Origin: Candidatus Caldarchaeales archaeon
GTDB taxonomy: Archaea; Thermoproteota; Nitrososphaeria_A; Caldarchaeales; Calditenuaceae
NCBI GenBank assembly: GCA_039630085.1
Contig: JBCNVM010000001.1
Span: 202,037-266,036 of the forward strand
Reading direction: 5' to 3'
DNA length: 64,000 bases
In this document: piece after piece, positions 2,228 through 63,500 of the stretch
Numbering within the stretch: position 1 is the first letter of the stretch
Layout of the letters: every line of letters starts with the position of its first letter
Notes under the pieces: generated by a model
Told to the model about the DNA's origin: nothing
What the model saw: the letters and a program-made list of their open reading frames with translations, nothing else
Database searches by the model: none
Translations under genes and position numbers: made by a program

Positions 2228-2263
2228 ATTAGGCGGTCGTGTCCGACGGCAGCCCGAGGGAGG

Positions 2264-3116: not shown

Positions 3117-3137
3117 GCCGTCCGGTCCTCGAGCCTT

Positions 3138-4040: not shown

Positions 4041-4100
4041 AGATGTCGGCCGCTGCCTGGCCCTATTTGTCTTTCCTGCGAGGCCCGAGCCCGTCGACCT

Positions 4101-4895: not shown

Positions 4896-5679
4896 CCCTC
4901 CTCACGCTCCGCTCGAGCCTGCTGTAAAGCACGTAGGAGAAGGCGCTGTAGGCCAGCACGACCGCCGCGAACGGCAACAGCCTCGAGGGCTCCATCATCC
5001 CCAAGAGGACCGCTCCCCTCACGACCTCCGCGACGTGGGTCTGGGGCAGCAGCGTCGCCAGTGCTTGGACGACCGCGGGGAACACGGTGAGCGGGTAGGC
5101 GACGCCGGTGAATGTGTAGACGATCGAGGAGACCAGGTCTATCAGGGCCTCGGTCCTCAGGAGGAGCACGACCACCGCGACCACCACCGCGAAGAGGAAG
5201 ATCGGGACCAGACCCAGGACCAGGACGAGCATCGCGGGGAGGAAGTGGGGGAGCGCGTCCGGCGCCCTGGCCTGAACGAACGGCACGGTGACCGCGACGT
5301 AGTAGAAGAGCGACATCAGTGTCGTGATGACGAACCTCCCCGCCACGACGACCCTGAAGTCCGTGGAGGTGGTCTGGAGCTGCTCGAGCTTCCCGCCCCT
5401 CCCCAGCTCTATCACGAACTGACCTATCGCCCAGCTCATCCCTATGCTCAGGAAGAGGATCGGCATCCCCGCGACCTGGTAGAGGACCGAGTCGCCGTAG
5501 CCTGCGAGCCGCGCGAACTCCTGCTCCTCCCTCCTCAGGGCCGACCCGATGACGAAGAAGAGCGCCTGGAAGGACCCCATGACCAGCAGCATCAGAGGGA
5601 GCTCTCCGGACCTGGCCATCGTCTTCAGGTCGGCCTCCACGACCGCGGCGAACGGCCTGAGCGCCCTAGCCGCCCGCAC
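4867..5679 (-). CDS. ABC-2 type transporter permease
   Basis: 270 aa polytopic protein. Its start overlaps the stop of the ABC ATPase gene. Confidence 0.65.
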   Translation of the reverse strand: MRAARALRPFAAVVEADLKTMARSGELPLMLLVMGSFQALFFVIGSALRREEQEFARLAGYGDSVLYQVAGMPILFLSIGMSWAIGQFVIELGRGGKLEQLQTTSTDFRVVVAGRFVITTLMSLFYYVAVTVPFVQARAPDALPHFLPAMLVLVLGLVPIFLFAVVVAVVVLLLRTEALIDLVSSIVYTFTGVAYPLTVFPAVVQALATLLPQTHVAEVVRGAVLLGMMEPSRLLPFAAVVLAYSAFSYVLYSRLERSVRRGGRYEVVTE

Positions 5680-6628: not shown

Positions 6629-6731
6629 CCGCGCTCGGTCGCTCCGCGGCGAATATCAACCCTCGGGAGTCCGGCAACCCTAGATAGTCGGCGCTCCAGA
6701 GCTCCGGCGCTTGGGGACGGAGGACCTGCTC

Positions 6732-7352
6732 ATGGCCCTGGGGATCGAGGAGGGCGTCGTCTACGAGTTCGTCTGCACGACCTTCTCCCCCGACGGCTCG
6801 CCTCACGCCTCCGCGATGGGCTGCACGTTCCTCAGGGACTCAGGAGGGCTCTCGACTGCCTCGAAGCTCTCGAGGGCCAGCAGGACCGCCGCGAACGTCC
6901 TCGCGAGGAGGTGCTTCGCCCTGAACGTCGTCCACCCGGAGGCCGTCGTGGAGGCCGCGCTGGACTTGGGCGTCCTAGAGATGGAGTTCGAGGCCGCCGA
7001 GTCGGTCGACGCCCCGAGGCTCAGGGGCGCCGCGGCCGTGATCGAGTGCTCCGTCGTCGATGTCTCCGAGGACAACGACTGGTTCCACGTCCGCTCCAGA
7101 CCTGTGCGCGTCTCGGTCCTGGGATCCCTGCTGAGGCCCTTCTCGAGGGGGCACGCGGCCCTGCTCGAGGCCGCGGTCCACGCCTCGAGGATACGGGTCT
7201 ACGAGGGGCTCGGCGAGCCGGAGAAGGCGGGGGAGCTGAGATCCAGGGTCTCCGCACTCCTGGAGAGCGCGGTGAGGCTGGCGCCCACGCCGACGGTCGT
7301 CGCCCAGAGCAGGGCCATCAGGTCGAGGTACCTCCGGATCCAAGGGCCCTGA
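6732..7352 (+). CDS. DUF447 family protein (FMN-binding split-barrel-like, linked in the literature to H4MPT-type C1 or pterin gene clusters)
   Basis: N-terminus GIEEGVVYEFVCTT and C-terminal SRGHAALLEAAVHASRI resemble DUF447 proteins as I recall them. ATG6732 is preferred over the TTG6711 of the ORF track. Confidence 0.55.
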   Translation: MALGIEEGVVYEFVCTTFSPDGSPHASAMGCTFLRDSGGLSTASKLSRASRTAANVLARRCFALNVVHPEAVVEAALDLGVLEMEFEAAESVDAPRLRGAAAVIECSVVDVSEDNDWFHVRSRPVRVSVLGSLLRPFSRGHAALLEAAVHASRIRVYEGLGEPEKAGELRSRVSALLESAVRLAPTPTVVAQSRAIRSRYLRIQGP

Positions 7353-7399
7353 CGCGGTCTCGGGATATGCACAAATAGCTTCCGGGGCGTCGAGCGTCC

Positions 7400-8182
7400 G
7401 TGGTGACTCTGGCTGAACTGCTCCCGCGGTGCGGTCTCGTCGTCCGCGGACCTGCGGCCCGTTCGCTCGAGGGGTTCGAGGTCCCCGTGGGCTTCGTCGG
7501 GCCTCCCGAGTCGGACTTGGTCGTCCCCGGCGATCTCAGGGAACCGGCGCTCTACCTCATCGGCCGTCAGGCGCTGGTCGAGTCCCACGAGGTCGTCCTC
7601 GCGCTGGGCCTGGGGCTGAGGGAGCTCGCGGAGCTGGACGCCCGGCACGCGGCGGTGCTGGTCCGCTTCGTCGGTCCCGAGGGCCTCGAAGCTCAGGTCG
7701 GAGGGCTCGGAGGCCCCTGGCAGGTCGAGGGCGGAGCGGCTTCGGCCGTTCTACTCGCCTTCGCGAAGCTCGCGTCCCTTATGTGCTCCGAGGTCCTGAG
7801 CGAGTCGGGGGTGAGGTCCGAGGCCCTGAGCAGGGTCGCGAGGGAGGAGTCGGAGTCGATCGAGGCCCTCATCGGGTCCGTCGGCAGGTCGCTGGTCGGG
7901 TCCGCCCAAGCCGGACTCTTCGGCGCGCTGCAGGGCCTGAGGCCGCTTCTCGAGCGGTGGTTCCTGGTCGAGGGGGAGGCGAACAGGGCCGCTTCTGTCC
8001 TGCTGGGAGGCGGGACTTCCGAGGACTCCGTCGAGCTCGGGTCGGGAAGGCTCGCCTCGATCCAGGAGGAGTTCCACCTGAGGAGGGTCAACGCGCTCCG
8101 GTCGATGGGCCTGGACCTGCTCGAGGCCCAGAAAATCGCCGAGCTGCCCGGGGGCACCGTCAAGCCGGGCTGGGGGTGCTGA
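7400..8182 (+). CDS. Hypothetical protein
   Basis: Of three overlapping long ORFs, only this frame has protein-like composition (L/E/V/A/G/S) and strong GC3 bias. The other two are Arg/Pro-rich or Ser/Pro/Thr-rich shadows. No motif recognised. Confidence 0.4.
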   Translation: MVTLAELLPRCGLVVRGPAARSLEGFEVPVGFVGPPESDLVVPGDLREPALYLIGRQALVESHEVVLALGLGLRELAELDARHAAVLVRFVGPEGLEAQVGGLGGPWQVEGGAASAVLLAFAKLASLMCSEVLSESGVRSEALSRVAREESESIEALIGSVGRSLVGSAQAGLFGALQGLRPLLERWFLVEGEANRAASVLLGGGTSEDSVELGSGRLASIQEEFHLRRVNALRSMGLDLLEAQKIAELPGGTVKPGWGC

Positions 8183-8233
8183 TCCCGGGACGTCGCGGAG
8201 CAGATTAATCTGGGCGCGATCGCTCTCCGGAGC

Positions 8234-8986
8234 GTGTCAGTCCAGCAGGACCCGAAGGAAGTCGCCGACCATCTGATCGTGACCATCGCCGATCGCATCG
8301 CCGACGGGTTCAAGGTCGTCACCGGGCTCAACTCCCACGTCCCGCTCCTCGCGATCGCGGTCGCGAAGGTCGTCCACGGGAAGAGGGTAAGCCTCTACAC
8401 GGTCGCGGAGGCCTACGACCCGGACCTCGAGAGGGTCAAGCTAAGGCCCTCGACGGGCGATCCGGCGCTCGCGGAGGACGCGACAGTCATCCCGATGGTC
8501 GAGACCTTCGACCTCGTCCAGAAGGGCCTGATCGACGTGATGTTCCTCGGGCCTGTCCAGATCGACGCGGAGACCAACATCAACCTCTCGGTGATAGGGA
8601 GCTACCGGCGCCCGAAGGTCAGGCTCCCGGGCGGTGCGGCTTCGGCGTTCATCGTGCCGCTCGTCAAGAGGGTTTACTTCTGGAGAACGAGGCACACGTC
8701 GAGGGACCTCGTCAGGCGGGTCGACTTCGTCACCGCGACCGCGAAGCACTCCGACAACGAGGTCTACCTCTTCACCAACCTCTGCGTCCTCAGGTACAAC
8801 AGGGAGAGGTCGATGTGGGAGCTGGAGGCCCGTCACCCCTGGGCCGGGAGGGACCTCATAGCCTCGAACACCGGCTTCGAGCTCCTCGTCCAAGACGACC
8901 GCGTCACGAGACCGCCCTCCCGGGAGGAGAGGGAGCTGATCAGGGCCCTCGACCCGAACGACCTGCGGGTGAAGGCCTTCCTCTGA
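8234..8986 (+). CDS. CoA-transferase beta-subunit-like protein (GctB / 3-oxoacid CoA-transferase B family)
   Basis: 250 aa. FLGPVQIDAETNINLSVIGSYRRPKVRLPGGAASAFIV and VDFVTA...FTNLCVL...NTGFEL match the family I beta-subunit pattern. No alpha-subunit gene is recognisable nearby. Confidence 0.6.
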   Translation: MSVQQDPKEVADHLIVTIADRIADGFKVVTGLNSHVPLLAIAVAKVVHGKRVSLYTVAEAYDPDLERVKLRPSTGDPALAEDATVIPMVETFDLVQKGLIDVMFLGPVQIDAETNINLSVIGSYRRPKVRLPGGAASAFIVPLVKRVYFWRTRHTSRDLVRRVDFVTATAKHSDNEVYLFTNLCVLRYNRERSMWELEARHPWAGRDLIASNTGFELLVQDDRVTRPPSREERELIRALDPNDLRVKAFL

Positions 8987-9043: not shown

Positions 9044-10204
9044 ATGCCGAAGGAGACCTTAGTGACCAGCGTCGTCGGGAGCTGGCCGAGGCCCAGCTGG
9101 CTTCTCTCGGAGCTGAGGAGGAAGAACAGGGGCGAGGTGACCTACGAGCGGTTCAGCGAGGCCGCCGACGAGGCCGTGCTCCTGGCCGTGAAGTACCAAG
9201 AGGACGCCGGGATAGACGTGGTGACCGACGGCGAGCAGAGGCGCGACAACTTCTACTCCTTCGTGGCCGACAAGCTGGAGGGCATCAAGCTCGTGTCGGT
9301 CGCGGAGCTGATGGACTTCGTCCAAGACAAGAGGAGGTTCGAGGAGGTCCTGAGCAGGCTCGACGTCCCCGCCTTCGCGATCAAGAGCCCGGTCGTCGTG
9401 GGGCCCATCAGGAAGAGGAGGCCCTTGGCCCTGGACGAGCTCGAGTTCCTCAGGGAGCACACCCGCAGGAGGATCAAGGTCCCGCTTCCCGGACCTTATA
9501 TGCTGACGAGGGCCAGCTGGGTCGAGCCGCTCAGCAGGAACGCCTACTGGTCGAGGGAGGACCTCGCGACCGAGTACGTCAGGCTCCTCAGGGAGGAGAT
9601 CGTCAGGCTCGCGGAGGCCGGCGCGTCGTTCGTCCAGCTCGACGAGCCCACGCTGATGGAGGTCGTTTACGGAGAGGCCTCGCAGCAGACGTTCATGTGC
9701 GCCGCGATAATGGCCAAGGTCGACCCGAAGGAGGAGCTGGAGTTCGCGACCGAGCTGATCAACAGGACCGTGAAGGGTGTGACCGGCGTGAAGGTCGGGA
9801 TCCACGTCTGCAGGGGCAACTGGACGAGGTCCGAGGAGTCACTGCTCTCCGGCGACTACTCGCCGCTGATACCGTACTTCCAGGAGATGAAGGTCGACCA
9901 GTTCGTGCTGGAGTTCGCCACCTCCAGGGCCGGCGAGGTCAGGGTCTTCGCCGACGCCTCCGGGATCAGGGAGCTGGGGCTCGGAGTCGTCAACCCGAGG
10001 ACCGACGAGGTCGAGCCCACCGAGTCCATAAGGGCCAGGGTCCGCGAGGCGCTGAACTACTTCGACCCCGAGAGGATCTACCTCAACCCCGACTGCGGCT
10101 TCGGGACGTTCGCCGAGTCGCCCGTCAACAGGGCTCCGGTCGCGTACAGGAAGCTGAAGTCGATGGTGAGGGCCGCGGAGGAGCTGAGGAAGGAGTACGC
10201 CTGA
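9044..10204 (+). CDS. metE: Cobalamin-independent methionine synthase catalytic-domain protein (short 'core' MetE)
   Basis: 386 aa. SVVGSWPRP N-terminus. Zn-ligand contexts IHVCRGN and NPDCGFG. It lacks the N-terminal half of bacterial MetE. Confidence 0.8.
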   Translation: MPKETLVTSVVGSWPRPSWLLSELRRKNRGEVTYERFSEAADEAVLLAVKYQEDAGIDVVTDGEQRRDNFYSFVADKLEGIKLVSVAELMDFVQDKRRFEEVLSRLDVPAFAIKSPVVVGPIRKRRPLALDELEFLREHTRRRIKVPLPGPYMLTRASWVEPLSRNAYWSREDLATEYVRLLREEIVRLAEAGASFVQLDEPTLMEVVYGEASQQTFMCAAIMAKVDPKEELEFATELINRTVKGVTGVKVGIHVCRGNWTRSEESLLSGDYSPLIPYFQEMKVDQFVLEFATSRAGEVRVFADASGIRELGLGVVNPRTDEVEPTESIRARVREALNYFDPERIYLNPDCGFGTFAESPVNRAPVAYRKLKSMVRAAEELRKEYA

Positions 10205-10232
10205 GGCGCGTAGACGCATCGTACGTCAGCAC

Positions 10233-10239
10233 TATATAA
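10233..10239 (+). promoter_or_regulatory. TATA-box-like element (TATATAA) for the 10259 gene
   Basis: TATATAA is centred about 26 nt upstream of ATG10262. This spacing is expected for a leaderless archaeal mRNA. Confidence 0.45.
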
Positions 10240-10258
10240 CCAGTCCGAGTTCTGGTCG

Positions 10259-10780
10259 GTGATGAGCAGGAGACTGCTCTTGGCCGGAGTCGCGATCGGC
10301 GTGCTGGCGACGCTGCTGGTGGCGGGACTGCTGATCCCAGCGACGATTGGGTATTCGGAGCCGGTCTTCGTCCACCACGGGAGGGGACACGGGAGAGGAG
10401 GCGGGGCGTGGAGGAACGCCACGGTCACGCAGGAGCAGGTCGTGATAACCGGAAGGCTCGCGGACCTCGACTTCGGCGTGATGACGATCAGCACGGCCTC
10501 GGGGGACGTCCAAGTCAAGTACCCGATGGCCCTGTTGGTCGACGGGAGGCCCGTTAGCGTCGTCAAGCTGGTCTTCGACGGGAGGCTCCGGAAGGACGAC
10601 GCCGTTGAGGTCACGGCCCTGCGGATCACCGTCACCCTCCCCGACGGGACCACGAGGACCAAGACGGTGCTGGTCAGCATCTACGACCAGACAACGGGGT
10701 TGAGGGCCGAGGCTCCCGGAAGGGGCGCGGTCGGCCCAAGGGCGCCCTCTCAGACGCAATCCGCTGCCCCGAGCACCTGA
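10259..10780 (+). CDS. Hypothetical membrane-anchored or secreted protein
   Basis: N-terminal hydrophobic anchor RRLLLAGVAIGVLATLLVAGLLIP, followed by a beta-rich domain and a Gly/Ala/Pro/Ser-rich tail. No known motif. Confidence 0.5.
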   Translation: MMSRRLLLAGVAIGVLATLLVAGLLIPATIGYSEPVFVHHGRGHGRGGGAWRNATVTQEQVVITGRLADLDFGVMTISTASGDVQVKYPMALLVDGRPVSVVKLVFDGRLRKDDAVEVTALRITVTLPDGTTRTKTVLVSIYDQTTGLRAEAPGRGAVGPRAPSQTQSAAPST

Positions 10781-43214: not shown

Positions 43215-43622
43215 CTAGGCGATGGCCGGCCTGTACTTGAAGCCGTAGACGATGATCCCGGCGTCACCGTCGTGGGCGATCTTCCTCACCACCCTCTCCA
43301 CGAGCATCCCGGGCCTGAGCTCCTCCGGATCCGCGTCGGTTATCGGGGCCAAGACCTTCGTCCCGTCCTCGAACTCGACTAGCCCGACCACGTAGGGCGC
43401 CAGCTCCTTGTGCTCCTCGGTCGGCGACTTGACCACCGTGAACGCGACGAGCCTCCCCCTCTCCGGGAGCTCCTCCCTCACGAGGTTCCTCGACCTGCAC
43501 CTCCTGCAGACGACCCTCGAGGTCGTGTTGACGGTCCCGCAGCTCGCGCACCTCAGGACCTCCGCCCTGTACCTGAACCTCCTGTGCCTCCAGTGGTTCT
43601 GGGGCCTGAAGTTGAACCTCAT
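43215..43622 (-). CDS. DUF35 OB-fold/zinc-ribbon protein (scaffold of the archaeal thiolase/HMG-CoA synthase complex)
   Basis: Zn ribbon CASCG...CRRC followed by an OB fold. Overlaps the thiolase gene. The three-gene arrangement is canonical. Confidence 0.8.
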   Translation of the reverse strand: MRFNFRPQNHWRHRRFRYRAEVLRCASCGTVNTTSRVVCRRCRSRNLVREELPERGRLVAFTVVKSPTEEHKELAPYVVGLVEFEDGTKVLAPITDADPEELRPGMLVERVVRKIAHDGDAGIIVYGFKYRPAIA

Positions 43623-44797
43623 TCCCGATCACCCGCGAGCAGGACCGCGGTCCCGGCGATCGCGCCGAACCCCGAGACCGAGATCGCGGCGCCGGCCCTC
43701 GCGCCGTCCACCTGCCTCTTCCCAGCCCTCCCCGTCAGCTGCAGGTAGACCTCCGCGACCTGGTAGAGCGCGGTGGCGCCTATCGGGTGTCCCCTCGCCT
43801 TGAGGCCCCCGAAGGCGTTGATCGGGAGCTCCCCGCCCATCGCGTACTTCCCCGACTTCAGGTCCTGGCCGCTCTCCGACCTCTTGGAGAACCCCCCGCT
43901 CTCGAGTATCAGGGGCGCCATTATCGAGAAGGAGTCGTGGAGCTCAAGGACGTCCAAGTCCCCCCTCGAGATCCCGCTCCGGAGGAGGGCCTCGTCGACC
44001 GAGAGCGCGACCGAGGTCATGAAGAGGGGGTCCTCCCTGTCGAAGGGCGAGACGTAGTCGGTCCTGAGGCTTATCCCGCCTATCCTGACCGCTTCGCCGG
44101 AAGCCCGCTTCCTCTCCGAGTCCCCCGACGCGAGGACCACCGCGGCCGCGCCGTCTCCGGGCGCGAAGCACTCGAGCCTCCTCAGCGGCGGCGCGACCTC
44201 CGGCGACCCGAGGACGTCCTCTAGCCTCACCTTGAACGGGAACTGCGCGTGCCCGACTCCCTCAGCGTTGCTGTGCATCAGGACCGGGAACTGGGCGACG
44301 AACTCCTGCGGCATCTCGTACCTCTCGAGGTAGGTCCTGTAGAGCAAGGCCGCGACCGGTGCCGGCGTGACTCCCGCGTACCCCATCGTCTCGTAGGGCA
44401 GCGTCATAGAGTGGACGGAGTTGAACTCGTCGGGGAGCATGTCGGAGAGCTTCTCGCCGCCGACCACCAGCGCGAAGTCCGAGAGGCCCGAGGCGACGGC
44501 CGCGTAGGCCTCCGCCAGCGCCATCAGCCCCGAGGCCTCCCCTCCCTCGACCCTGACGCCGTAGACGCTCCTGAGCCCGAGCGCCTCTGCGACTAGGGCC
44601 GAGATCCCGGCCTGGTTGGAGGTCACCTCGCAGAAGGAGCACGCGACGTAGACGCCGTCTACCCTCTCGACCCCCGCGTCCTCGATCGCAGCTAGAGAGG
44701 CCTCCGCCATCAGGTCCGTCAGCGACCTGTCCCAGTGCTCGCCCACCTTCGTGTAACCGACGCCGACGACCTGGACGCTCCTCATCCCTTCAGGCAC
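43619..44797 (-). CDS. Acetyl-CoA acetyltransferase (thiolase)
   Basis: 392 aa thiolase fold. Active-site Cys context VACSFCEVTS, and C-terminal GHPIGATA with ISVSGFGA. Confidence 0.85.
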   Translation of the reverse strand: MPEGMRSVQVVGVGYTKVGEHWDRSLTDLMAEASLAAIEDAGVERVDGVYVACSFCEVTSNQAGISALVAEALGLRSVYGVRVEGGEASGLMALAEAYAAVASGLSDFALVVGGEKLSDMLPDEFNSVHSMTLPYETMGYAGVTPAPVAALLYRTYLERYEMPQEFVAQFPVLMHSNAEGVGHAQFPFKVRLEDVLGSPEVAPPLRRLECFAPGDGAAAVVLASGDSERKRASGEAVRIGGISLRTDYVSPFDREDPLFMTSVALSVDEALLRSGISRGDLDVLELHDSFSIMAPLILESGGFSKRSESGQDLKSGKYAMGGELPINAFGGLKARGHPIGATALYQVAEVYLQLTGRAGKRQVDGARAGAAISVSGFGAIAGTAVLLAGDRE

Positions 44798-45839
44798 CGC
44801 GTATCTTGTCCCTGTGCCGGAGATATGTCGCGTAGTCGACGTATTTCGCCCTGTTGATCAGAGTCTCGAGCAGCGGAGCCCTCGGCCTCCTCTCGAGCAG
44901 GCCGTCCTTGGTCTCGATGAGGAAGGAGTCGCTGCCCGCTCCGGAACCGAAGGACGTGAGGACGATCCGCTGGCCCGGCCTGGCCGCGTCGAGGACCTTC
45001 ACCAGCCCCATCATGGAGCTCGCGGCGTAGGTGTTCCCTATCAGGTGCGTCACCACCCCGGGCTCGACCTTCTCCTTCGGGATTCCGAGGACCTTCGCCG
45101 CCGCGAACGGGAACTTGTAGTTAGGCTGGTGGAAGACGAAGTAGTCGACGTCGGAGACCTTCAGCCCCGCCTCCTCCAGAAGCCCCTTCACCGCGGAGAG
45201 GGTGTGGTGGAAGTAGGCCGGCTCGCCGGTGAACCTGAAGGTGTGGGATGGGTAGCGCTCGTGGGCCCTCCTCCAGAAGTCGGGCGTGTCGGTGACGTAG
45301 CTCCTGGCGTGCTCTATCGTCGCGACCTCGCCGTTGCCCTGCCTGCCGACGACGAAGGCGGCCGCGCCCGCGGCGGCGGTGAACTCCAGCGCGTCGCCGG
45401 GCCTGCCCTGAGCCGTGTCGGCCCCGATCGCGAGGCCTGCCCTGATGATCCCCGCTGAGACCAGGCCCGAGATCATCTGGAGGGCCTCCGTCCCGGCCTT
45501 GCAGGCGAACTCGAGGTCGGCGGCGAGGTGGTTGGGCGGGATGCCCAGGGCCTCGGCCACGACGGTCCCCGAGGGTTTCACCGCGTAGGGGTGGGACTCG
45601 GAGCCCACGTTGACGGCCCCTATCTCCGACGGGTCGATGCCCGCCCTCCTCATCGCGTACCTCGCGGCCTCGATCGCCATCGTGATCGCGTCCTCGTCGA
45701 GCTCGTTGACCGACTTCTCCCTCACCGGGAGCGCGTCCTCCTCCCTTCCCCAGACCCTCGCGATCTCCGTCGCCCTTATCCTGAGCCTCGGGACGTAACC
45801 TCCGTAGCCTAGGATCGCGACGTCCCTTATCCGGGCCAA
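44790..45839 (-). CDS. Hydroxymethylglutaryl-CoA synthase
   Basis: 349 aa. EFACKAGTEAL catalytic Cys context, HQPN and GNTYAAS motifs. TTG start in the track. Confidence 0.85.
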   Translation of the reverse strand: MARIRDVAILGYGGYVPRLRIRATEIARVWGREEDALPVREKSVNELDEDAITMAIEAARYAMRRAGIDPSEIGAVNVGSESHPYAVKPSGTVVAEALGIPPNHLAADLEFACKAGTEALQMISGLVSAGIIRAGLAIGADTAQGRPGDALEFTAAAGAAAFVVGRQGNGEVATIEHARSYVTDTPDFWRRAHERYPSHTFRFTGEPAYFHHTLSAVKGLLEEAGLKVSDVDYFVFHQPNYKFPFAAAKVLGIPKEKVEPGVVTHLIGNTYAASSMMGLVKVLDAARPGQRIVLTSFGSGAGSDSFLIETKDGLLERRPRAPLLETLINRAKYVDYATYLRHRDKIRGA

Positions 45840-45940: not shown

Positions 45941-46390
45941 GTGACGGCGCTGGACGAGAGGGACGTCAGGATCCTCGAGGCGCTGAGGAGGGACGCGAGG
46001 AAGACGTTCACCGAGCTGGCCGGCGAGCTGAACCTCCCCAGGACGACGGTCCAGGAGAGGGTCAGGCGGCTTATCGAGGAGGGCTACATCAGGTCCTTCA
46101 CCGCGATACCGGACTACTCGAAGATCGGGAGCGGGACGACCGCGTTCGTCCTGGTCTCCTTCGCGCCGACGATGGACATCTCCCAGCGGGAGCTCGCGGC
46201 CCAGCTGGCCAGGTTCCCTGAGGTCTTCGAGGTCCACCTCGTCAGCGGCCAGTGGGACATGATCCTGAAGGTGAGGGGCTCCTCGGTCGAGGACGTCGGC
46301 AAGCTGGTCATAGACAGGCTCAGGCCGATGAAGAACGTTGCCAAGACCGAGACCTGCTTCGTCTTCGAGACGGTGAAGGAGCAGCCCTGA
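45941..46390 (+). CDS. Lrp/AsnC family transcriptional regulator
   Basis: HTH LDERDVRILEALRRDARKTFTELAGELNLPRTTVQERVRRLIEEGYI plus a C-terminal RAM/ACT-like domain. Confidence 0.85.
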   Translation: MTALDERDVRILEALRRDARKTFTELAGELNLPRTTVQERVRRLIEEGYIRSFTAIPDYSKIGSGTTAFVLVSFAPTMDISQRELAAQLARFPEVFEVHLVSGQWDMILKVRGSSVEDVGKLVIDRLRPMKNVAKTETCFVFETVKEQP

Positions 46391-46484
46391 AGGCCGGTCC
46401 GGATCCGACCTCCGGGATCCCCGTCGCCCGGTCTTTCAACACGCTTAAATAACGTCGAGGAGCAGCTCCGCCAGGCGGTTCGTC

Positions 46485-47318
46485 ATGCTTGTGACCGGTA
46501 CCGACGTGAGGGACGCGCTGGTCAGGCTGATAAGGGTCGGTTCGCTGATAGCGGTCCTGGGCGCGGTCCACGTCCTAACCCTCCTCCTCGACTGGGTCTC
46601 CCTTCTCTACGACAACGTGATGGTCACGGGCGTCCAGGGCTACGACCTGACCACGAGCTTCCTCCTCTCGATGACGGCCGCGGCCCTCGCGGGGGCCTCC
46701 GGGGTCCTGGCCTCGGTCTCCACCAACGTCAGGGTCCTCAGGTTCGCGGTCCCGGCCTTCGCGCTCGGCGGCGCGGCCCTCGCGATCCTCTCACCGCTCT
46801 ACTCGGTCCTCTACGTCCTCCCCTCGCTCCAGGTCGAGTTCAGGACCGAGGTGGGGGCGATCGCGGCGCTCTTCACTGGGGTCGCGATGGCCGGGGGCGG
46901 CGCGATATCCACGATGATCGGCCTGGTGGCCCTACGTCCCGAGAGCCAGCCCTCCGCCTACCAGCCCTACGCCCCGGTGGAGTTTGAGGCCGCAGAGGTC
47001 GGAGCGGCCTCGACGCCGGTCGCGCCGTCCGAGGAGGAGGTCTTCGAAGAGCTCCTGAGGGGCGAGCCCGAGGAGGCCTATACCGGCTTCGGGGCGCAGG
47101 CGCAGCAGGAGGCCCAGCAGGTCTTCACCCCTCCCTCGAGGTCTCCGGCTCCTCAGCAGCAGGCGTCTAGGAGGGTCTGCGTGATGTGCGGCGACGTCGT
47201 GCAGCCTTCGTCGCTGAGGACCTGCCCGGGGTGCGGCGAGCCGATGCACAGGGAGTGCGTCGAGACCTGGAGGGACATAGGGGGCAGGTGCCCGAACTGC
47301 GGGACCCAGCTCTCCTGA
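46485..47318 (+). CDS. Polytopic membrane protein with C-terminal C4HC3 (PHD/RING-like) zinc finger
   Basis: About 5 TM segments, an acidic/Gln-rich linker, then C-x2-C-x11-C-x2-C-x4-H-x2-C-x10-C-x2-C (CVMCG...CPGCGEPMHRECVETW...CPNCG). Confidence 0.6.
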   Translation: MLVTGTDVRDALVRLIRVGSLIAVLGAVHVLTLLLDWVSLLYDNVMVTGVQGYDLTTSFLLSMTAAALAGASGVLASVSTNVRVLRFAVPAFALGGAALAILSPLYSVLYVLPSLQVEFRTEVGAIAALFTGVAMAGGGAISTMIGLVALRPESQPSAYQPYAPVEFEAAEVGAASTPVAPSEEEVFEELLRGEPEEAYTGFGAQAQQEAQQVFTPPSRSPAPQQQASRRVCVMCGDVVQPSSLRTCPGCGEPMHRECVETWRDIGGRCPNCGTQLS

Positions 47319-47356
47319 TGGGTTTTTCTATGACGGCCTGACGCTCGGGATCGGCG

Positions 47357-48829
47357 ATGTCCGGCAGGGTCTACGACGAGCTGATCGACCTCTCCCTCAG
47401 GAGGGGCTTCTTCTTCCCTTCCTGCGAGATCTACGACGACGCCCCCGCTGGCTTCTGGGACTACGGCCCGCTAGGGCTGGGGCTGAGGAACAGGTTCGTC
47501 GAGGCCTGGAGGCGGTACGTCGTGAGGTACGACGGCATGGTCGAGCTCGACGGCTCGGTGATCATGGCGAAGAGGGTCTTCGTCGCCTCGGGGCATCTGG
47601 CCTCCTTCGCGGACCCGGTCACCAGGTGCAGGTCCTGCGGCGCGATTTACAGGGCCGACAGGCTGGTCCAGGAGGCGACCGGGAGGATAGTCCCGGAGAG
47701 GCTCAGGGACGAGGAGATCTACGCGCTCATCCTCGAGCACGGGATCAGGTGCCAGAGGTGCGGCGGCGAGTTGGGGGGAGTCGAGAGGTTCAACATGATG
47801 TTCAGGGTCAGCGTCGGAGGCGAGGGCGAGGAGGCCTACCTCAGGCCCGAGACCTGCCAGTCGCTCTTCGTCGACTTCCTCAGGGCCTACAAGACGGGCT
47901 GGTCGAAGCTCCCGCTTCCCCTCTGCCAGTTCGGGAAGAGCTTCAGGAACGAGATCGCGCCCAGACAGAGCCTCTTGAGGCTCAGGGAGTTCTACCAGGC
48001 CGAGGTCGAGGTCTTCTTCGACCCCGAGGACGAGGTCGATCCGGTGAGGTGGAGGAGGCTGAAGGACCACGTCCTGAGGTTCGGGGACGAGCGCGGGAAC
48101 TTCACCGAGGTCACCGCCGAGGAGGCCCTGAACGGTGGGATCGTCTCCCACTGGCTCCCCGCCTACTACCTGGCCCTGATCCAGAGGTTCTACGAGCTCC
48201 TGGGCGTCGAGAGGTCGAGGATACGGCTCAGGAGGCTCGGCGAGGACGAGAAGGCCTTCTACGCGAGGGAGGCCTGGGACCTCGAGGTCCTGACCTCGCT
48301 CGGGTGGATCGAGCTGGTCGCTTGCAACTACAGGGGCGACTACGACCTCTCCGGCCACGCGAGGGTGAGCGGGAAGGACCTCACGGTCCTGAACCGGAAC
48401 AGGAAGGTCCTGCCGCACGTCTTCGAGCTCTCGATGGGCGTCGACAGGAGCGTCTACGTCCTGATGGAGCTCGGGTACGCGAAGGAGCCCAAGAGGAGGG
48501 TCCTGAGGGTGCCCAAGTTCCTCGCGCCGGTCCAGGTCGCGGTCCTACCTCTGGTCGAGAGGGACGGCCTCCCCGAGAGGGCATGGGAGATCTACGAGGG
48601 CCTCAGGGTCGAGTTCGACGCGGTATACGAGCCGAAGGACGCGATCGGGAAGAGGTACCACATGCTCGACGAGATCGGCGTCCCCTACTGCGTCACGGTC
48701 GACTACCAGACCCTCAAGGACGACACGGTCACGGTCAGGGACAGGGACACGACTCAGCAGGTGAGGGTCCACGTCTCGGAGCTGAGGGAGTGGCTGAACA
48801 GGGCGCTGGCTTACCCGCGGGCCGATTGA
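47357..48829 (+). CDS. glyS: Glycine--tRNA ligase (archaeal/eukaryotic dimeric type)
   Basis: RRGFFFPSCEIYDDAPAGFWDYGPLG N-terminus, class II motifs (FRNEIAPR), and an anticodon-binding C-terminus. Confidence 0.85.
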   Translation: MSGRVYDELIDLSLRRGFFFPSCEIYDDAPAGFWDYGPLGLGLRNRFVEAWRRYVVRYDGMVELDGSVIMAKRVFVASGHLASFADPVTRCRSCGAIYRADRLVQEATGRIVPERLRDEEIYALILEHGIRCQRCGGELGGVERFNMMFRVSVGGEGEEAYLRPETCQSLFVDFLRAYKTGWSKLPLPLCQFGKSFRNEIAPRQSLLRLREFYQAEVEVFFDPEDEVDPVRWRRLKDHVLRFGDERGNFTEVTAEEALNGGIVSHWLPAYYLALIQRFYELLGVERSRIRLRRLGEDEKAFYAREAWDLEVLTSLGWIELVACNYRGDYDLSGHARVSGKDLTVLNRNRKVLPHVFELSMGVDRSVYVLMELGYAKEPKRRVLRVPKFLAPVQVAVLPLVERDGLPERAWEIYEGLRVEFDAVYEPKDAIGKRYHMLDEIGVPYCVTVDYQTLKDDTVTVRDRDTTQQVRVHVSELREWLNRALAYPRAD

Positions 48830-48898: not shown

Positions 48899-49372
48899 GT
48901 GAAGCAGAGGGTGAGGCTCACCTGCGCGCTGGTCGACAGGCCCGGGACGCTCCTGAAGGTCCTCGAGCAGATAGCCCTCGCGGGCGGCAACATCATCTCG
49001 ATCGTCCACAACAGGGAGAGCATAGCCTCGGGGTACGTCCCCGTCAGCATCAACGTCGAGTTCCCCGACGCCCAGAGCCTCGAGAGGGCCAGGAGGGGAA
49101 TAGAGGGGGTCGGAGTCCCCGTGATGGGCGCCGAGAGCCTCGAGAGGCGGATGGTGACCGCGATCGTGGTCGGAGGCGTGAGGCTCGACTCCCTCCTCTC
49201 CGAGCTCGAGTCAAGGGGTTACAGGGTCATCGAGTCCTCCGCCAGGGGGTTCGGCGAAGGCCTGACCGTGAGGCTGCTCCTGGAGGTCCCGACGGGGAGG
49301 GTGAGGGAGCTGGAGGAGGACCTCGCGGCGATCGCGGAGAGGCACGGAGCCCTGGCCATCCCGGAGGTGTGA
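48899..49372 (+). CDS. ACT-domain protein
   Basis: VRLTCALVDRPGTLLKVLEQIALAGGNIISI is a beta-alpha-beta ACT start, with a second ACT-like half. Lies immediately upstream of homoserine dehydrogenase. Confidence 0.6.
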   Translation: MKQRVRLTCALVDRPGTLLKVLEQIALAGGNIISIVHNRESIASGYVPVSINVEFPDAQSLERARRGIEGVGVPVMGAESLERRMVTAIVVGGVRLDSLLSELESRGYRVIESSARGFGEGLTVRLLLEVPTGRVRELEEDLAAIAERHGALAIPEV

Positions 49373-49376
49373 GGCG

Positions 49377-50369
49377 CTGGAGCTGAGGGTCTTCGTCAAC
49401 GGCTACGGGTTCTTGGGGAGGCTGCTCGCGAGGAGGCTGGTCGAGGGCAGGGTCCCGGGCGCGAGGCTCGTCGGGGTCGCGAGGTCGTCGGGCTACGTCT
49501 ACAGGGAGGAGGGCCTGACCCGGGAGGACGTCTCGGGGGAGATCAGGGACTCCGCGGCCTTCGTCGGTGGAAGCTCGGCCTCGCTGATCGGGGAGCGGGC
49601 CTTCGACGTCCTTGTGGAGCTGACGCCGACCAAGCTCCCCAGCGCGGAGCCGGGCCTCAGCAACATCAGGTCGGCCCTGAGGAACGGGATCGACGTTGTC
49701 ACGGCAAACAAGGCGCCCATCTCGCTCCACTACGCCGAGCTGTCCGAGCTCTCGAGGTCCACGGGCTCCCTCCTGCTCTTCGACGCGACCGTGGGAGGGG
49801 GGATACCGCTGATAACGCTCAGGAGGCTCTGCATGCGCGGCGACGACCTCCTCTCGATCAAGGGCATCCTGAACGGGACCACCAACTACGTCCTCAGCAG
49901 GATGCAGTTCGAGGGGCTGACCTTCGAGCTGGCGCTCAGGGAGGCCCAGAACCTCGGGATCGCGGAGAGGGACCCGTCGCTGGACGTCAACGGCTACGAC
50001 ACCGCCCTGAAGCTGCTGATCCTCGCGAACTCCCTGATGGGGCTGAACAGGGGCCTCGGCGACGTCAAGGTCGTCGGGATATCCAGGGTCACGCAGGAGG
50101 CGGTCGCGGCGGCGAGGGAGTCCAACATGTCGGTCAAGCTGATCGGGTCCGTCGACGGGGAGGGTAGGCTCTCGGTCGGACCGAGGCTCGTGAAGGCCAA
50201 CGACCCGCTCTGCGTCCACGGTACGCTGAACGCGGTCACGTTCAGGTTCAGGATCGCGGGGGACCTGACGCTGATCGGCCACGGAGCGGGCGAGCCCACC
50301 GTCGCGGCCCTCCTCAACGACCTCCACCAGGTGGTCGAGCACCGGCTCAGAGCGAGAGCCTCAGGGTGA
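49377..50369 (+). CDS. hom: Homoserine dehydrogenase (start codon unresolved)
   Basis: Rossmann N-terminus LRVFVNGYGFLGRLL (GxGxxG), then NKAP and GILNGTTNY catalytic-domain motifs. The first canonical start (TTG49413) would delete beta1 and the Gly loop. CTG49377 and CTG49383 are the only in-frame candidates. Confidence 0.75.
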   Translation: MELRVFVNGYGFLGRLLARRLVEGRVPGARLVGVARSSGYVYREEGLTREDVSGEIRDSAAFVGGSSASLIGERAFDVLVELTPTKLPSAEPGLSNIRSALRNGIDVVTANKAPISLHYAELSELSRSTGSLLLFDATVGGGIPLITLRRLCMRGDDLLSIKGILNGTTNYVLSRMQFEGLTFELALREAQNLGIAERDPSLDVNGYDTALKLLILANSLMGLNRGLGDVKVVGISRVTQEAVAAARESNMSVKLIGSVDGEGRLSVGPRLVKANDPLCVHGTLNAVTFRFRIAGDLTLIGHGAGEPTVAALLNDLHQVVEHRLRARASG

Positions 50370-61977: not shown

Positions 61978-62111
61978 GGAACAGCCCCTTCCGGTCCCGC
62001 GGAGCGCCCCCGGCTCTAAAATAGCTCACCCGACTACTCAGCGCGCGGAACGGCCGTGCCCTCAGAGAACTGTCGGGCAAACCTTATCTCCGGCGCGGGT
62101 CACTCCGGCCC

Positions 62112-63500
62112 GTGAGGCACGAGCTGGTAGAGAGGCTCTGGAGGAGGATCCAGGAGAACGAGGCCTTGTACGTGAGCAGGCTCAGGAGGATCCTCGAGGT
62201 CAGCGGCGTCTCCGCGACCGGCGAGGGGATCGACGAGGCCGCATCTGTCACGAGGGAGCTGATGGAGGAGGTGGGGCTGAAGGCCGAGACGCTCGGCACC
62301 GGAGGGCACCCCGCGGTCTTCGGGGAGCTGAGGGAGGAGAGGCACGGCACGCTGCTGTTCTACAACCACTACGACGTCCAGCCGCCCGACCCCCTCGAGC
62401 TCTGGGAGAGCCCTCCCTTCTCCCCCTCGGTCAGGGACGGAAGGGTCTTCGCGAGAGGGGCTGCGGACAACAAGGGCAACTTGGTCGCGAGGCTCTGTGC
62501 GATCGACGCTGTCAGAGAGGTCGCAGGAGAGCTCCCGGTGAACGTGAAGATGCTCGCGGAGGGCGAGGAGGAGATCGGCAGCCCGAACCTCCCCCTGCTC
62601 GTCAGGACCCAAGGCCACATGCTCGAGGCCGACGCCTGCCTCTGGGAGATGAGCTACCTCGACGACAAGGACAGGCCCGTGATCGCGCTGGGCGCGAAGG
62701 GCATCGTGTATCTGGAGCTGGTCGCGAGGCGCCGCGGCGGCGACCTCCACTCGTCGTGGGGCGCGGTCTCGGTGAACCCGGCCTGGAGGCTGATGGCGGC
62801 CCTGAGCGTCCTCGCCGAGCCCGACGGTACCCCCAAGCTCCAGGAGCTGAGGGAGGACGTCGACCTCGACCCGAAGTTCCTCAGGATCGTGGAGGAGTCC
62901 GAATACGACTTCAGGGAGATAGAGGAGGGCGCGGGGGAGCTAATACCGGTCGCGAAGGGGAACCCTAGGGAGGCCCTGAAGAGGCTGACGATGATGCCGG
63001 TCGTGAACGTCTGCGGGATCCACTCCGGTTACACCGGTAAGGGCTCGAAGACGGTCCTGCCCTCGGAGGCCTTAGCGAAGGTCGACGTCAGGCTGGTCCC
63101 CAAGATGAGGCCGGAGAAGGTGATCGAGGCCGTGAGGAGGGCCCTGAGGGCGGGAGGCTTCGTGGACGTCGAGGTCAGGCAGCTGGGCGGCTCCTACCCT
63201 GCCGCGAGGACCGATCCCGAGTCGCCGTTCGTCGAGGTCGTCTCCAAGACCGCGAAGGTCGCCTTCGAGAGGGACCCGGTCCTGCTCCCGTCGATGCAGG
63301 GCTCCGGTCCCATGTACCTCTTCACGGAGGTCCTCGGGCAGCCGTGCGTCCTCGCGGGCGTCAGCAGGAGAGACTCCAAGTACCACGCGCCGAACGAGAA
63401 CCTCAGGATCGACGACTACCTCAGGGGGATATTCCACGTCGCGCTGCTGATGGTGAACTTCGTCCCGATGATGAGGTGGGGGGTGATGCCCTACCGATGA
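62112..63500 (+). CDS. M20-family metallopeptidase (dipeptidase or ArgE/DapE/CPG2-like)
   Basis: HYDVQP, RGAADNKG and EGEEEIGS metal-ligand motifs. GTG start. Confidence 0.8.
   Translation: MRHELVERLWRRIQENEALYVSRLRRILEVSGVSATGEGIDEAASVTRELMEEVGLKAETLGTGGHPAVFGELREERHGTLLFYNHYDVQPPDPLELWESPPFSPSVRDGRVFARGAADNKGNLVARLCAIDAVREVAGELPVNVKMLAEGEEEIGSPNLPLLVRTQGHMLEADACLWEMSYLDDKDRPVIALGAKGIVYLELVARRRGGDLHSSWGAVSVNPAWRLMAALSVLAEPDGTPKLQELREDVDLDPKFLRIVEESEYDFREIEEGAGELIPVAKGNPREALKRLTMMPVVNVCGIHSGYTGKGSKTVLPSEALAKVDVRLVPKMRPEKVIEAVRRALRAGGFVDVEVRQLGGSYPAARTDPESPFVEVVSKTAKVAFERDPVLLPSMQGSGPMYLFTEVLGQPCVLAGVSRRDSKYHAPNENLRIDDYLRGIFHVALLMVNFVPMMRWGVMPYR

What the first reader, a model, noticed from the sequence alone, without database searches (positions are those of the whole stretch)
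46485..47318. Membrane-anchored C4HC3 (PHD/RING-like) binuclear zinc finger in an archaeon
The last 45 residues read C-x2-C-x11-C-x2-C-x4-H-x2-C-x10-C-x2-C (CVMCGDVVQPSSLRTCPGCGEPMHRECVETWRDIGGRCPNCG). This is eight ligands with PHD/RING-CH spacing and the H-x2-C-x3-W feature seen in RING-type fingers. The domain is tethered by an acidic/Gln-rich linker to about five TM helices. Cross-brace RING/PHD fingers are hallmark eukaryotic modules and are only sporadically reported in prokaryotes. A membrane-tethered version resembles MARCH/Doa10-type E3 architecture. No E1/E2/ubiquitin-like genes are visible in this window.
Basis: partly seen in the sequence, partly recalled or inferred. Interest (0 to 1): 0.6.

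Follow-up and report, generated by a model that had tools for sequence, protein, structure and literature searches.

The report
Membrane-anchored RING finger of archaeal ubiquitin system
This hot-spring archaeon (Candidatus Calditenuis, Aigarchaeota) encodes a four-helix membrane protein with a cytoplasmic RING zinc finger of the same type as the proven archaeal ubiquitin ligase, so it is probably a membrane-bound ubiquitin ligase, a job so far known only from eukaryotes.

Summary
The ORF (window 46485-47318, +, 277 aa) and its C-x2-C-x11-C-x2-C-x4-H-x2-C-x10-C-x2-C motif are real. The finger is a RING:
- Pfam's best hit is zf-RING_2.
- A profile of 49 archaeal copies hits the RING-H2 ligases Arkadia (2e-15), EL5, RNF165, HRD1 and gp78.
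- The AlphaFold model (pLDDT 85) matches only cross-brace RING E3 domains in the top 50 PDB hits.

There are four TM helices, not five. The positive-inside rule puts the RING in the cytoplasm in 31/31 orthologues.

The ligand spacing is identical to srfp, the biochemically validated E3 of Ca. Caldiarchaeum subterraneum. The genome carries Ubl-E2-E1, Rpn11 and a small srfp-like RING on other contigs.

The 4TM-RING gene is present in 75/76 genomes of the order and in none of about 340 other Thermoproteota sampled. In most families it lies in a conserved cluster: Rpn11 | Ubl-E2-E1-srfp-cc103 | cc302 | memRING-GlyRS.

E2-contact residues (I/M at C1+2, W/Y, P) are conserved. The linchpin Arg/Lys is Gly in this genus.

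Most likely this is a membrane-anchored RING E3 of the aigarchaeal ubiquitin system. That function is untested, and I found no description of it in the literature I could read.

The parts
46485..47318 (+). Gene for the 277-aa membrane-anchored RING protein ('memRING'). The end coordinate includes the stop codon.
   Evidence: ORF. The start matches the orthologue N-termini. Found in 75/76 genomes of the order.
46445..46452 (+). TTAAATAA, a TATA-box-like element 33-40 nt upstream of the ATG. Possibly the gene's own archaeal promoter (inference only).
   Evidence: Sequence read.
46530..46595 (+). TM helix 1 (residues about 16-37). Holds near-invariant G26, H29, L31 and L35, and invariant L33 and W37.
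   Evidence: Hydropathy. AlphaFold helix 5-48. Conservation.
46656..46724 (+). TM helix 2 (residues about 58-80). Holds invariant S62 and near-invariant A69-G70.
46743..46814 (+). TM helix 3 (residues about 87-110), with the conserved S103-P104-x-Y106 motif.
46851..46934 (+). TM helix 4 (residues about 123-150), Gly/Ala-rich, with invariant G124. Almost invariant within the genus.
46935..47177 (+). Cytoplasmic linker (residues 151-231), acidic and Gln/Pro-rich, predicted disordered. It holds a short genus-conserved acidic helix, EEEVFEELLR (183-192).
   Evidence: pLDDT 31-47 and helix 183-192. Conservation within the genus. Length and sequence vary across the order.
47178..47300 (+). RING domain (residues 232-272). 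Ligands are C232, C235, C247, C250, H255, C258, C269 and C272. Predicted E2-contact residues are M234, W262 and P270. G273 sits at the linchpin position.
   Evidence: Pfam zf-RING_2 scores 31.4 bits on the domain alone. Profile versus PDB. AlphaFold pLDDT 88-94 and a beta-beta-alpha core. Foldseek. Residue counts.
47357..48829 (+). Glycyl-tRNA synthetase gene, 39 nt downstream on the same strand. This adjacency is kept in almost every genome of the order.
   Evidence: Pfam. Synteny.
45941..46390 (+). Lrp/AsnC-family regulator upstream. In this genus it occupies the place that the ubiquitin operon holds in other families.
   Evidence: Pfam. Comparison of loci.
43619..45839 (-). Thiolase (43619-44797) and HMG-CoA synthase (44790-45839). 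In Ca. Caldiarchaeum these genes flank the far side of the ubiquitin cluster, so they mark the shared ancestral neighbourhood.

Best explanation
The gene encodes a polytopic membrane protein with four TM helices and both termini in the cytoplasm. A flexible acidic linker of about 80 residues holds a C-terminal RING domain at the cytoplasmic face of the membrane.

The RING binds two zinc ions in cross-brace fashion: site 1 is C232/C235/H255/C258 and site 2 is C247/C250/C269/C272. It is a paralogue of srfp, the small RING finger E3 of the aigarchaeal ubiquitin operon.

The proposed mechanism is that of a RING E3. The domain docks the ubiquitin-charged E2 of this genome (contig C65) through M234, W262 and P270. 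It then promotes direct transfer of the ubiquitin-like protein to lysines of proteins that the conserved TM domain recognises in or at the membrane. This would mark them for proteasomal removal or for regulation.

Shown here:
- The RING sequence and fold class.
- A cytoplasmic topology prediction.
- Presence of Ubl, E2, E1 and Rpn11 in the genome.
- Order-wide conservation.
- Gene-neighbourhood linkage to the ubiquitin operon in most related families.
- Paralogy with a validated E3.

Inferred: E2 binding, ligase activity, the substrates and the fate of those substrates.
For: 1. RING identity.
- zf-RING_2 is the best Pfam hit: 26.7 bits on the whole protein, 31.4 bits on the domain, cut-off 27.3. 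It scores 30.5 bits, over the cut-off, in the genome scan. The Ca. Caldiarchaeum orthologue scores 38.2 bits.
- The profile of 49 archaeal copies hits the solved RING-H2 E3s Arkadia (2e-15), EL5 (2.6e-13), RNF165, RNF4, RNF38, synoviolin/HRD1 (4e-10) and AMFR/gp78 (2e-9).
- The AlphaFold domain model has pLDDT 84.9. Its top 50 PDB matches are all RING E3 domains, probability about 1.0. The best is RNF165, with TM 0.74 and rmsd 1.7 A over 48 columns.

2. Same type as a proven E3.
- The ligand spacing is identical to that published for srfp CSUB_C1477 (PMC3082918).
- srfp is required for ubiquitylation in vitro, and its I30 and W58 are needed (PMC5654768).
- The equivalent positions here are I/M/L in 31/31 orthologues, W or Y in 31/31 and P in 31/31.

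3. Topology. There are four TM segments, and K+R residues are enriched on the N-terminus, loop 2 and the post-TM4 side in 31/31 orthologues.

4. Partners in the same genome.
- Ubl ending in GG, a UQ_con E2 (92.8 bits) and an E1 form an operon on C65.
- Rpn11 is also on C65.
- An srfp-like small RING is on C2.

5. Distribution.
- The gene is in 75/76 genomes, 43/43 high-quality genomes and 15/15 genera of the order.
- No full-length match was found outside the order in a 401-genome phylum sample.
- Only 13 clusters reach E<=1e-30 among 1.84 billion representatives.

6. Neighbourhood. In families f2-f4 the conserved cluster is cc264-Rpn11 | Ubl-E2-E1-srfp-cc103 | cc302 | memRING-GlyRS.

7. Independent parallels.
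- An unrelated multi-TM protein with the same RING type sits in the srfp position of a Ub-E2-E1 operon in another metagenomic archaeon (L043).
- Another such protein lies next to a ubiquitin-domain gene (L042).

8. Age. The memRING and srfp RINGs form two separate groups (support 95/92). This indicates an old duplication that has been kept in all lineages.
Against: - No biochemical or expression evidence exists.
- The linchpin basic residue after the last Cys is R69 in srfp, and R69A impairs the cascade (PMC5654768). Here it is Gly, as in 16/31 orthologues. It is Lys in 11/31.
- In this genus the gene is not next to the ubiquitin operon.
- Synteny within a single order may partly reflect shared descent rather than selection for linkage. 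The equally conserved GlyRS adjacency shows that neighbours need not be functional partners.
- The whole-protein Pfam score is 0.6 bits under the gathering cut-off.
- The cross-brace ligation rests on homology and an AlphaFold model without zinc. I could not measure ligand distances because model coordinates are not exposed.
- The TM domain matches no known family, so substrate recognition is conjecture.
Confidence: 0.65

Rival explanations
1. The RING is real but does not act as a ligase by itself. It serves as a membrane docking site or regulatory partner of the ubiquitin system. For example, it could pair with the soluble srfp RING, as BARD1 or BMI1 pair with their active partners. Alternatively it could hold the E2 at the membrane without activating it.
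For: The linchpin Arg/Lys needed in srfp is Gly here and in half of the orthologues. Two paralogous RINGs are kept side by side in nearly every genome. Foldseek's top hits include the heterodimeric RING1B/BMI1 pair.
Against: The E2-contact positions (I/M, W/Y, P) are conserved like those of active E3s. Eleven of 31 orthologues do carry Lys at the linchpin place. Many active RING E3s lack a canonical linchpin (general knowledge). Nothing here tests dimerisation.
Confidence: 0.17
2. It is a RING-like zinc finger used for something other than ubiquitin. One possibility is a membrane-tethered protein- or nucleic-acid-binding module in signalling or regulation. The synteny with the ubiquitin operon would then be inherited gene order only.
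For: In this genus the gene is unlinked from the operon and lies between an Lrp/AsnC regulator and GlyRS. The GlyRS adjacency is as conserved as the ubiquitin adjacency. RING-like treble-clef fingers have non-ubiquitin roles in prokaryotes (Burroughs et al. 2011, from memory; that paper was not readable here).
Against: The family occurs only in the one order of this phylum that has the eukaryote-type Ub system, and in all of its genomes. The closest sequence relatives are bona fide E3s and the validated srfp. Unrelated TM-RING proteins sit inside Ub operons elsewhere.
Confidence: 0.13
3. It is not a RING at all. The eight ligands form two independent sequential zinc ribbons or knuckles (a DZR or rubredoxin-like module), as in many small archaeal zinc-ribbon proteins.
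For: Weak sub-threshold hits to DZR (17.4-23.4 bits, cut-off 27.3), Zn_ribbon_3 and the archaeal rubrerythrin-like domain (24.2 bits, cut-off 32). Four CxxC-type knuckles can in principle pair sequentially.
Against: All of these hits are below their cut-offs and weaker than zf-RING_2. The profile hits to RING E3s reach 2e-15 across the full domain. The predicted beta-beta-alpha core and all top 50 fold matches are RINGs, with no zinc ribbon among them. The H-x2-C-x3-W helix and the C-P-x-C motif are RING signatures.
Confidence: 0.03

Closest known systems
srfp, the small RING finger protein CSUB_C1477 of Candidatus Caldiarchaeum subterraneum. It is the E3 of the reconstituted archaeal E1/E2/RING cascade (PMC3082918, PMC5654768).
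   Same: The ligand spacing is identical: C-x2-C-x11-C-x2-C-x4-H-x2-C-x10-C-x2-C. It has the same variant in which a Cys upstream of the canonical C3 replaces the RING-H2 His4. The hydrophobic residue at C1+2, the Trp at C6+4 and the C-P-x-C motif are shared. The RING parts are 30-40% identical. Both occur in the same lineage and, in most genomes, in the same gene cluster.
   Different: srfp is a soluble protein of about 75 aa with Arg/Lys at the linchpin position. This protein has a conserved 4-TM domain and a long linker, and in this genus has Gly at the linchpin position. The two form separate paralogue groups. Activity has been shown for srfp only.
Eukaryotic membrane-anchored RING-H2 E3 ligases: plant ATL/EL5, RNF13/RNF24/ZNRF3-type TM-RING proteins, and Hrd1/synoviolin and gp78/AMFR of ERAD.
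   Same: TM segment(s) are followed by a cytoplasmic C-terminal RING-H2-like domain. These are among the best sequence and fold matches of the RING: EL5 at 2.6e-13, synoviolin at 4e-10, AMFR at 2e-9, and gp78 as the top Foldseek hit.
   Different: There is no detectable homology in the TM parts. The fourth ligand is Cys at a shifted position, giving C4HC3 instead of C3H2C3. The organism has no endomembranes, so the site of action would be the cell membrane.
RING-CH/RINGv ligases (MARCH, Doa10) and PHD fingers, which are the other C4HC3 fingers.
   Same: The ligand composition is C4HC3. In MARCH and Doa10 the architecture is also polytopic membrane protein plus cytoplasmic finger.
   Different: RINGv has C-x-C-x7-H around ligands 3-5 and its finger is N-terminal. 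Here the spacing is C-x2-C-x4-H and no RINGv hit was listed. PHD scores 10-17 bits against a cut-off of 24, and the PHD Trp before C7 is absent. PHD structures first appear at rank 27 in the full-length fold search and not at all in the top 50 of the domain search.
Prok-RING_1 (PF14446), the prokaryotic RING family linked to Ub/E1/E2/JAB operons. From memory, its bacterial members are described as carrying TM helices.
   Same: It is a prokaryotic RING associated with a ubiquitin-type gene cluster. There is a weak partial match of 18-23 bits, and precomputed PF14446 hits exist on most orthologues.
   Different: The score is below the 29.1-bit cut-off and covers only the first 36 of 54 profile positions. 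zf-RING_2 scores higher.

Membership tests
RING finger, RING-H2 class (Pfam zf-RING_2, PF13639) | Profile score at or above the curated cut-off (27.3 bits) | tested here: inconclusive
   The whole protein scores 26.7 bits, which is 0.6 under the cut-off. The domain alone scores 31.4 bits. The genome scan gives 30.5 bits, marked 'over cut-off'. The orthologue in Ca. Caldiarchaeum scores 38.2 bits. Precomputed PF13639 hits exist on 11 of the 12 database homologues.
RING finger, RING-H2 class (Pfam zf-RING_2, PF13639) | Eight zinc ligands in the C3H2C3 pattern | tested here: not met
   The pattern is C4HC3. In the alignment to Arkadia and EL5 the canonical His4 position is not a ligand, and an extra Cys three residues upstream of the canonical C3 takes its place. 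The same deviation was noted for the validated srfp (PMC5654768). It is therefore a variant of the class, not a textbook member.
RING finger, RING-H2 class (Pfam zf-RING_2, PF13639) | Cross-brace beta-beta-alpha RING fold | tested here: met
   This holds at the level of prediction. The AlphaFold domain model has pLDDT 84.9, with strands 27-29 and 36-38 and helix 39-48. All top 50 Foldseek PDB matches are RING E3 domains. Zinc ligation itself was not observed.
RING-type E3 ubiquitin ligase (functional class) | E2-binding surface: hydrophobic residue at C1+2, Trp in the central helix, Pro after C7 | tested here: met
   This protein has M234, W262 and P270. Across 31 orthologues the counts are I29/M1/L1, W27/Y4 and P31. 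The srfp equivalents I30 and W58 are required for activity.
RING-type E3 ubiquitin ligase (functional class) | Linchpin Arg/Lys directly after the last Cys | tested here: not met
   This protein has G273. Across orthologues the counts are G16, K11, N3 and Q1. The srfp paralogues carry R or K, with one exception (G in L019) among the 20 read.
RING-type E3 ubiquitin ligase (functional class) | Cognate Ub, E1 and E2 present in the organism | tested here: met
   Contig C65 carries a Ubl ending in GG, a UQ_con E2 at 92.8 bits and an E1. Rpn11 is also on C65.
RING-type E3 ubiquitin ligase (functional class) | Stimulates ubiquitin transfer from E2 to substrate | not testable with these tools
   This needs an in vitro assay.
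Aigarchaeal srfp-type RING | Spacing C-x2-C-x11-C-x2-C-x4-H-x2-C-x10-C-x2-C and significant similarity to srfp | tested here: met
   The spacing is identical to the published motif. tblastn of srfp against the memRING RING parts gives 1e-7 to 1e-10 at 30-42% identity. The tree shows a distinct paralogue group.
PHD finger (PF00628) | Profile score of at least 24 bits and a conserved Trp two residues before C7 | tested here: not met
   Scores are 10.1 bits on the whole protein and 16.8 bits on the domain, and only the first 30 of 47 profile positions align. The residues before C7 are G-G-R.
RING-CH / RINGv (MARCH, Doa10) | C4HC3 pattern with C-x-C-x7-H spacing, and a RINGv profile match | tested here: not met
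   The spacing here is C-x2-C-x4-H. RINGv does not appear in the hit lists shown, which give the best 25 families per query.
Double zinc ribbon (DZR, PF12773) | Profile score of at least 27.3 bits, with two sequential ribbons | tested here: not met
   Scores are 17.4 and 23.4 bits. No ribbon fold appears among the top 50 structural matches.

The most novel reading that the evidence does not exclude
Caldarchaeales (Aigarchaeota) possess a dedicated, universally conserved ubiquitin ligase embedded in the cell membrane. It would be an archaeal counterpart of eukaryotic membrane E3s such as Hrd1, gp78 and the ATLs, built on a TM domain of its own. Ubiquitin tagging of membrane or membrane-proximal proteins, for quality control or turnover, would then have existed in archaea with no endomembranes. 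It would be older than ERAD-type pathways. A recurrent TM-RING gene inside Ub operons of other uncultured archaea (L043) suggests this is a general feature of archaeal ubiquitin systems.
Probability: 0.4. Interest if true: 0.8.

Novelty: new variant of a known kind. Interest (0 to 1): 0.6.

Why it matters
The aigarchaeal Ub/E1/E2/srfp operon is the best-studied prokaryotic model for the origin of eukaryotic ubiquitylation. It has been treated as a minimal system with a single soluble E3, and no physiological substrates are known.

A second RING protein that is order-wide conserved and integral to the membrane would mean three things:
- The ancestral system already had E3 diversification.
- It had a membrane-directed branch.
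- There is a concrete handle for finding native substrates.

The idea is directly testable with the published reconstituted cascade from Ca. Caldiarchaeum, whose genome encodes the orthologue about 1.2 kb downstream of srfp.

Tried and rejected
- PHD, RINGv, DZR, rubredoxin-like and Prok-RING_1 assignments were all below their cut-offs or failed on spacing.
- An extracytoplasmic finger was rejected by the charge distribution in 31/31 orthologues and by the even TM number.
- The TM domain gave no Pfam or NCBIfam hit.
- The full-length AlphaFold model was poor in the TM part (pLDDT about 50-60). Its weak Foldseek matches to four-helix membrane proteins (Cav gamma, TARP, claudin; E about 0.3-1.6) are not interpretable.
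- Model coordinates are not exposed, so I could not measure ligand distances to prove cross-brace pairing.
- The key prior survey of prokaryotic RINGs (Burroughs, Iyer & Aravind 2011, PMC5938088) is not held. I cannot exclude that it already lists this protein.
- None of the papers I could read mentions a membrane RING in Aigarchaeota. These include Nunoura 2011, Hennell James 2017, Grau-Bove 2015 and Hua 2018. Grau-Bove et al. only count zf-RING_2 genes per aigarchaeal genome.
- Public databases name the family 'hypothetical protein' or 'RING finger (domain-containing) protein'.
Full report
**Observation**

The + strand carries an ATG-started ORF at 46485-47318 encoding 277 aa. Residues 232-272 read CVMCGDVVQPSSLRTCPGCGEPMHRECVETWRDIGGRCPNC.

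Hydropathy gives four hydrophobic segments, not five, at about 16-37, 58-80, 87-110 and 123-150. AlphaFold gives four long helices.

The tail after TM4 is acidic and rich in Gln and Pro, and it is predicted disordered up to the finger.

A TTAAATAA element lies 33-40 nt upstream of the ATG. It may be the gene's own promoter, but this is inference only.

**What the finger is**

- Pfam's best hit is zf-RING_2. It scores 26.7 bits on the whole protein and 31.4 bits on the domain alone, against a cut-off of 27.3. PHD, DZR, Prok-RING_1 and zinc-ribbon models are all weaker and below their cut-offs.
- I collected the RING parts of 28 orthologues and 20 srfp paralogues from genomes of the same order. 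The nine invariant columns are the eight ligands plus the Pro after C7.
- The profile of this alignment hits solved RING-H2 ubiquitin ligases across the full domain: Arkadia 2e-15, EL5 2.6e-13, RNF165, RNF4, RNF38, RLIM, synoviolin/HRD1 4e-10 and AMFR/gp78 2e-9.
- That alignment shows how the archaeal finger deviates from RING-H2. The canonical His4 is not a ligand, and a Cys three residues upstream of the canonical C3 replaces it. Hennell James et al. noted the same oddity for srfp.
- AlphaFold on the 60-residue domain with the 49-row alignment gives pLDDT 84.9 and a beta-beta-alpha core.
- All 50 best Foldseek matches in the PDB are RING E3 domains. They include gp78, RING1B, RNF165 (TM 0.74, rmsd 1.7 A over 48 columns), EL5, TRAF6, RNF38, HRD1 and Arkadia. 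No zinc ribbon or PHD finger is among them.
- The full-length model gave the same RING matches, but its TM part was too poorly predicted to use.

**Side of the membrane**

With four TM helices, both ends lie on the same side. In this protein the N-terminus (R9, R14, R17), loop 2 (R83, R86) and the post-TM4 flank (R151) carry the basic residues. Loop 1 has none.

Over 31 orthologues, mean K+R counts are 1.6, 2.1 and 1.6 on those three segments, against 0.6 and 1.35 on loops 1 and 3. All 31 sequences have the excess on the proposed cytoplasmic side. The RING is thus predicted to be cytoplasmic, which is also what a Cys-rich zinc site needs.

**Organism and partners**

The closest database homologues are MAG proteins of Candidatus Calditenuis / Nitrososphaeria. 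They are named 'hypothetical protein' or 'RING finger protein'. This is the Aigarchaeota (order Caldarchaeales). Its member Ca. Caldiarchaeum subterraneum has the Ub/E2/E1/srfp operon (PMC3082918), which has been reconstituted in vitro with srfp as the required E3 (PMC5654768).

The RING motif published for srfp has exactly the spacing found here.

The window's own assembly is 1.41 Mb in 66 contigs. It encodes the following elsewhere:
- On contig C65, a ubiquitin-like protein ending in ...TVGG directly before the stop codon.
- Also on C65, a UQ_con E2 (92.8 bits) and an E1, arranged in an operon.
- An Rpn11 homologue, about 19 kb away on C65.
- A small srfp-like RING, on C2.

**Distribution and neighbourhood**

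The full-length protein has a match in 75 of 76 genomes of the order, 43/43 high-quality genomes and 15/15 genera.

In a sample of 401 genomes of the phylum, full-length matches occur only in this order. Seven other genomes have weak RING-only hits.

Among 1.84 billion representative proteins, only 13 clusters reach E<=1e-30. The remaining roughly 41,600 hits match the RING part only.

One metagenomic protein (P0033) is a distant full-length relative, with hhalign probability 98.8.

In the genome that matches Ca. Caldiarchaeum (its Ubl carries the nine extra residues described in PMC5654768), the gene order is as follows:

HMGCS-thiolase-DUF35 | cc264-Rpn11 (minus strand) | Ubl-E2-E1-srfp-cc103 (plus) | cc302 (minus) | memRING-GlyRS (plus)

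The same cluster recurs in at least 12 loci from three families.

In the window's own family the Ubl-E2-E1 genes have moved away. Three genera keep srfp about 1.3 kb from memRING. In the window's genus only memRING-GlyRS remains, with HMGCS/thiolase on the other side and an Lrp/AsnC gene in between.

The RING domains of memRING and srfp form two separate groups with support 95/92. Each group roughly follows the family structure, which indicates an old duplication retained in every lineage.

**Independent parallels**

P0085 is a metagenomic protein with a different multi-TM N-terminus and the same RING type; hhalign matches the RING part only. It sits exactly where srfp would be in a JAB | ubiquitin-UQ_con-ThiF-[TM-RING]-UQ_con cluster.

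Another TM-RING protein, P0122, is next to a ubiquitin-domain gene.

Membrane anchoring of the operon's RING has therefore arisen more than once.

**Mechanism**

The residues that contact the E2 in RING E3s, and that were shown to matter in srfp (I30, W58), are conserved: I/M/L in 31/31, W/Y in 31/31 and P in 31/31.

The linchpin residue (srfp R69) is Gly in this genus and in 16/31 orthologues, and Lys in 11/31.

The TM domain is conserved beyond what a plain anchor needs. R14, L33, W37, G52, S62, S103 and G124 are invariant. H29, P104 and Y106 are nearly invariant. This suggests it recognises something in the membrane.

My reading, at confidence about 0.65, is a membrane-anchored RING E3. It would recruit the Ub-charged E2 to the cytoplasmic face of the membrane and ubiquitylate membrane or membrane-proximal proteins.

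The rivals are:
- A non-catalytic RING partner or E2 dock (0.17).
- A RING-like finger with a non-ubiquitin role (0.13).
- Sequential zinc ribbons (0.03).

**Known or new**

Multiple zf-RING_2 genes per aigarchaeal genome were counted by Grau-Bove et al.. Database annotation already says 'RING finger protein'.

None of the papers I could read mentions the membrane anchor, the order-wide conservation or the position in the extended ubiquitin cluster. The 2011 survey of prokaryotic RINGs was not available.

An earlier agent of this scan, working on another Calditenuis genome, reached the same reading. I re-derived each step here and do not count that note as evidence.

I class the finding as a new variant of a known kind. 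It has an srfp-type RING E3 module on a lineage-specific four-helix membrane domain. It is analogous in architecture, but not homologous in the TM part, to eukaryotic ATL-, RNF13-, Hrd1- and gp78-type ligases.

Noticed in passing
G000 contig C23:62053-67382 (L002 covers part); not in the window: A second ubiquitin-like cluster in the same genome. It holds a short E1-like gene (62053-62895), a single 272-aa protein fusing an N-terminal Ubl ending ...PRPVGG to a UQ_con-like E2 domain (63527-64345), and a JAB peptidase (64359-64850). About 2 kb further on is a 105-aa protein with a degenerate RING-like finger (67065-67382; Prok-RING_1 at 23.5 bits). Pilin-like small membrane proteins lie in between.
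   Followed up: partly
L018:9173-9484 (+), 9479-10387 (-), 5460-6254 (-), and the same positions in L019-L041: Three coiled-coil proteins without a family (cc103, cc302, cc264) are conserved parts of the extended aigarchaeal ubiquitin cluster. cc103 and cc302 lie between srfp and memRING, and cc264 lies beside Rpn11. Only weak coiled-coil Pfam hits were found. They may be adaptors of the system.
   Followed up: partly
window 47318-47357; L018:11132-11144; most loci L007-L041: The glycyl-tRNA synthetase gene follows memRING on the same strand, with a gap of 12-100 nt in most of the genomes of the order that I looked at. The exceptions are L026 and L028, where it is on the opposite strand, and L031 and L032, where the gap is larger. 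This suggests co-transcription, but no functional reason is apparent.
   Followed up: no
G000 contig C65:9204-9611 (-): The ubiquitin-like protein of this genome ends exactly at the di-glycine (...VTRTVGG, then stop). The Ca. Caldiarchaeum protein instead needs Rpn11 to remove nine extra residues. Processing may therefore not be required here. The annotated ORF start is probably too far upstream.
   Followed up: no
G000 contig C65:6925-7485 (-) and C2:3549-3700 (-): In this genus the gene after E1 is a 186-aa protein with a coiled-coil-looking N-terminal part and no family hit, not srfp. The srfp-like small RING sits alone on contig C2 and has Leu instead of the conserved Trp (CYEAL...).
   Followed up: partly
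L043 (metagenome contig, 10.7 kb), genes at 735-8243: An uncultured archaeon's ubiquitin cluster has JAB-PKD | ubiquitin-E2-E1-[multi-TM RING]-second E2, followed by a coiled-coil protein and a second JAB. Here the operon's RING itself is membrane-anchored. The lineage was not determined.
   Followed up: partly
G000 contig C56:36239-36508 (+): An 89-aa protein with two TM-like segments and a single C-terminal CxxC...CxxC zinc ribbon. It was picked up as a weak false RING hit (14.9 bits).
   Followed up: no
window 48899-50369 (+): An ACT-domain protein (157 aa) is followed by a 318-aa ORF that looks to the eye like homoserine dehydrogenase. They lie downstream of GlyRS and are ordinary amino-acid metabolism genes. 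Only the ACT protein was scanned.
   Followed up: no
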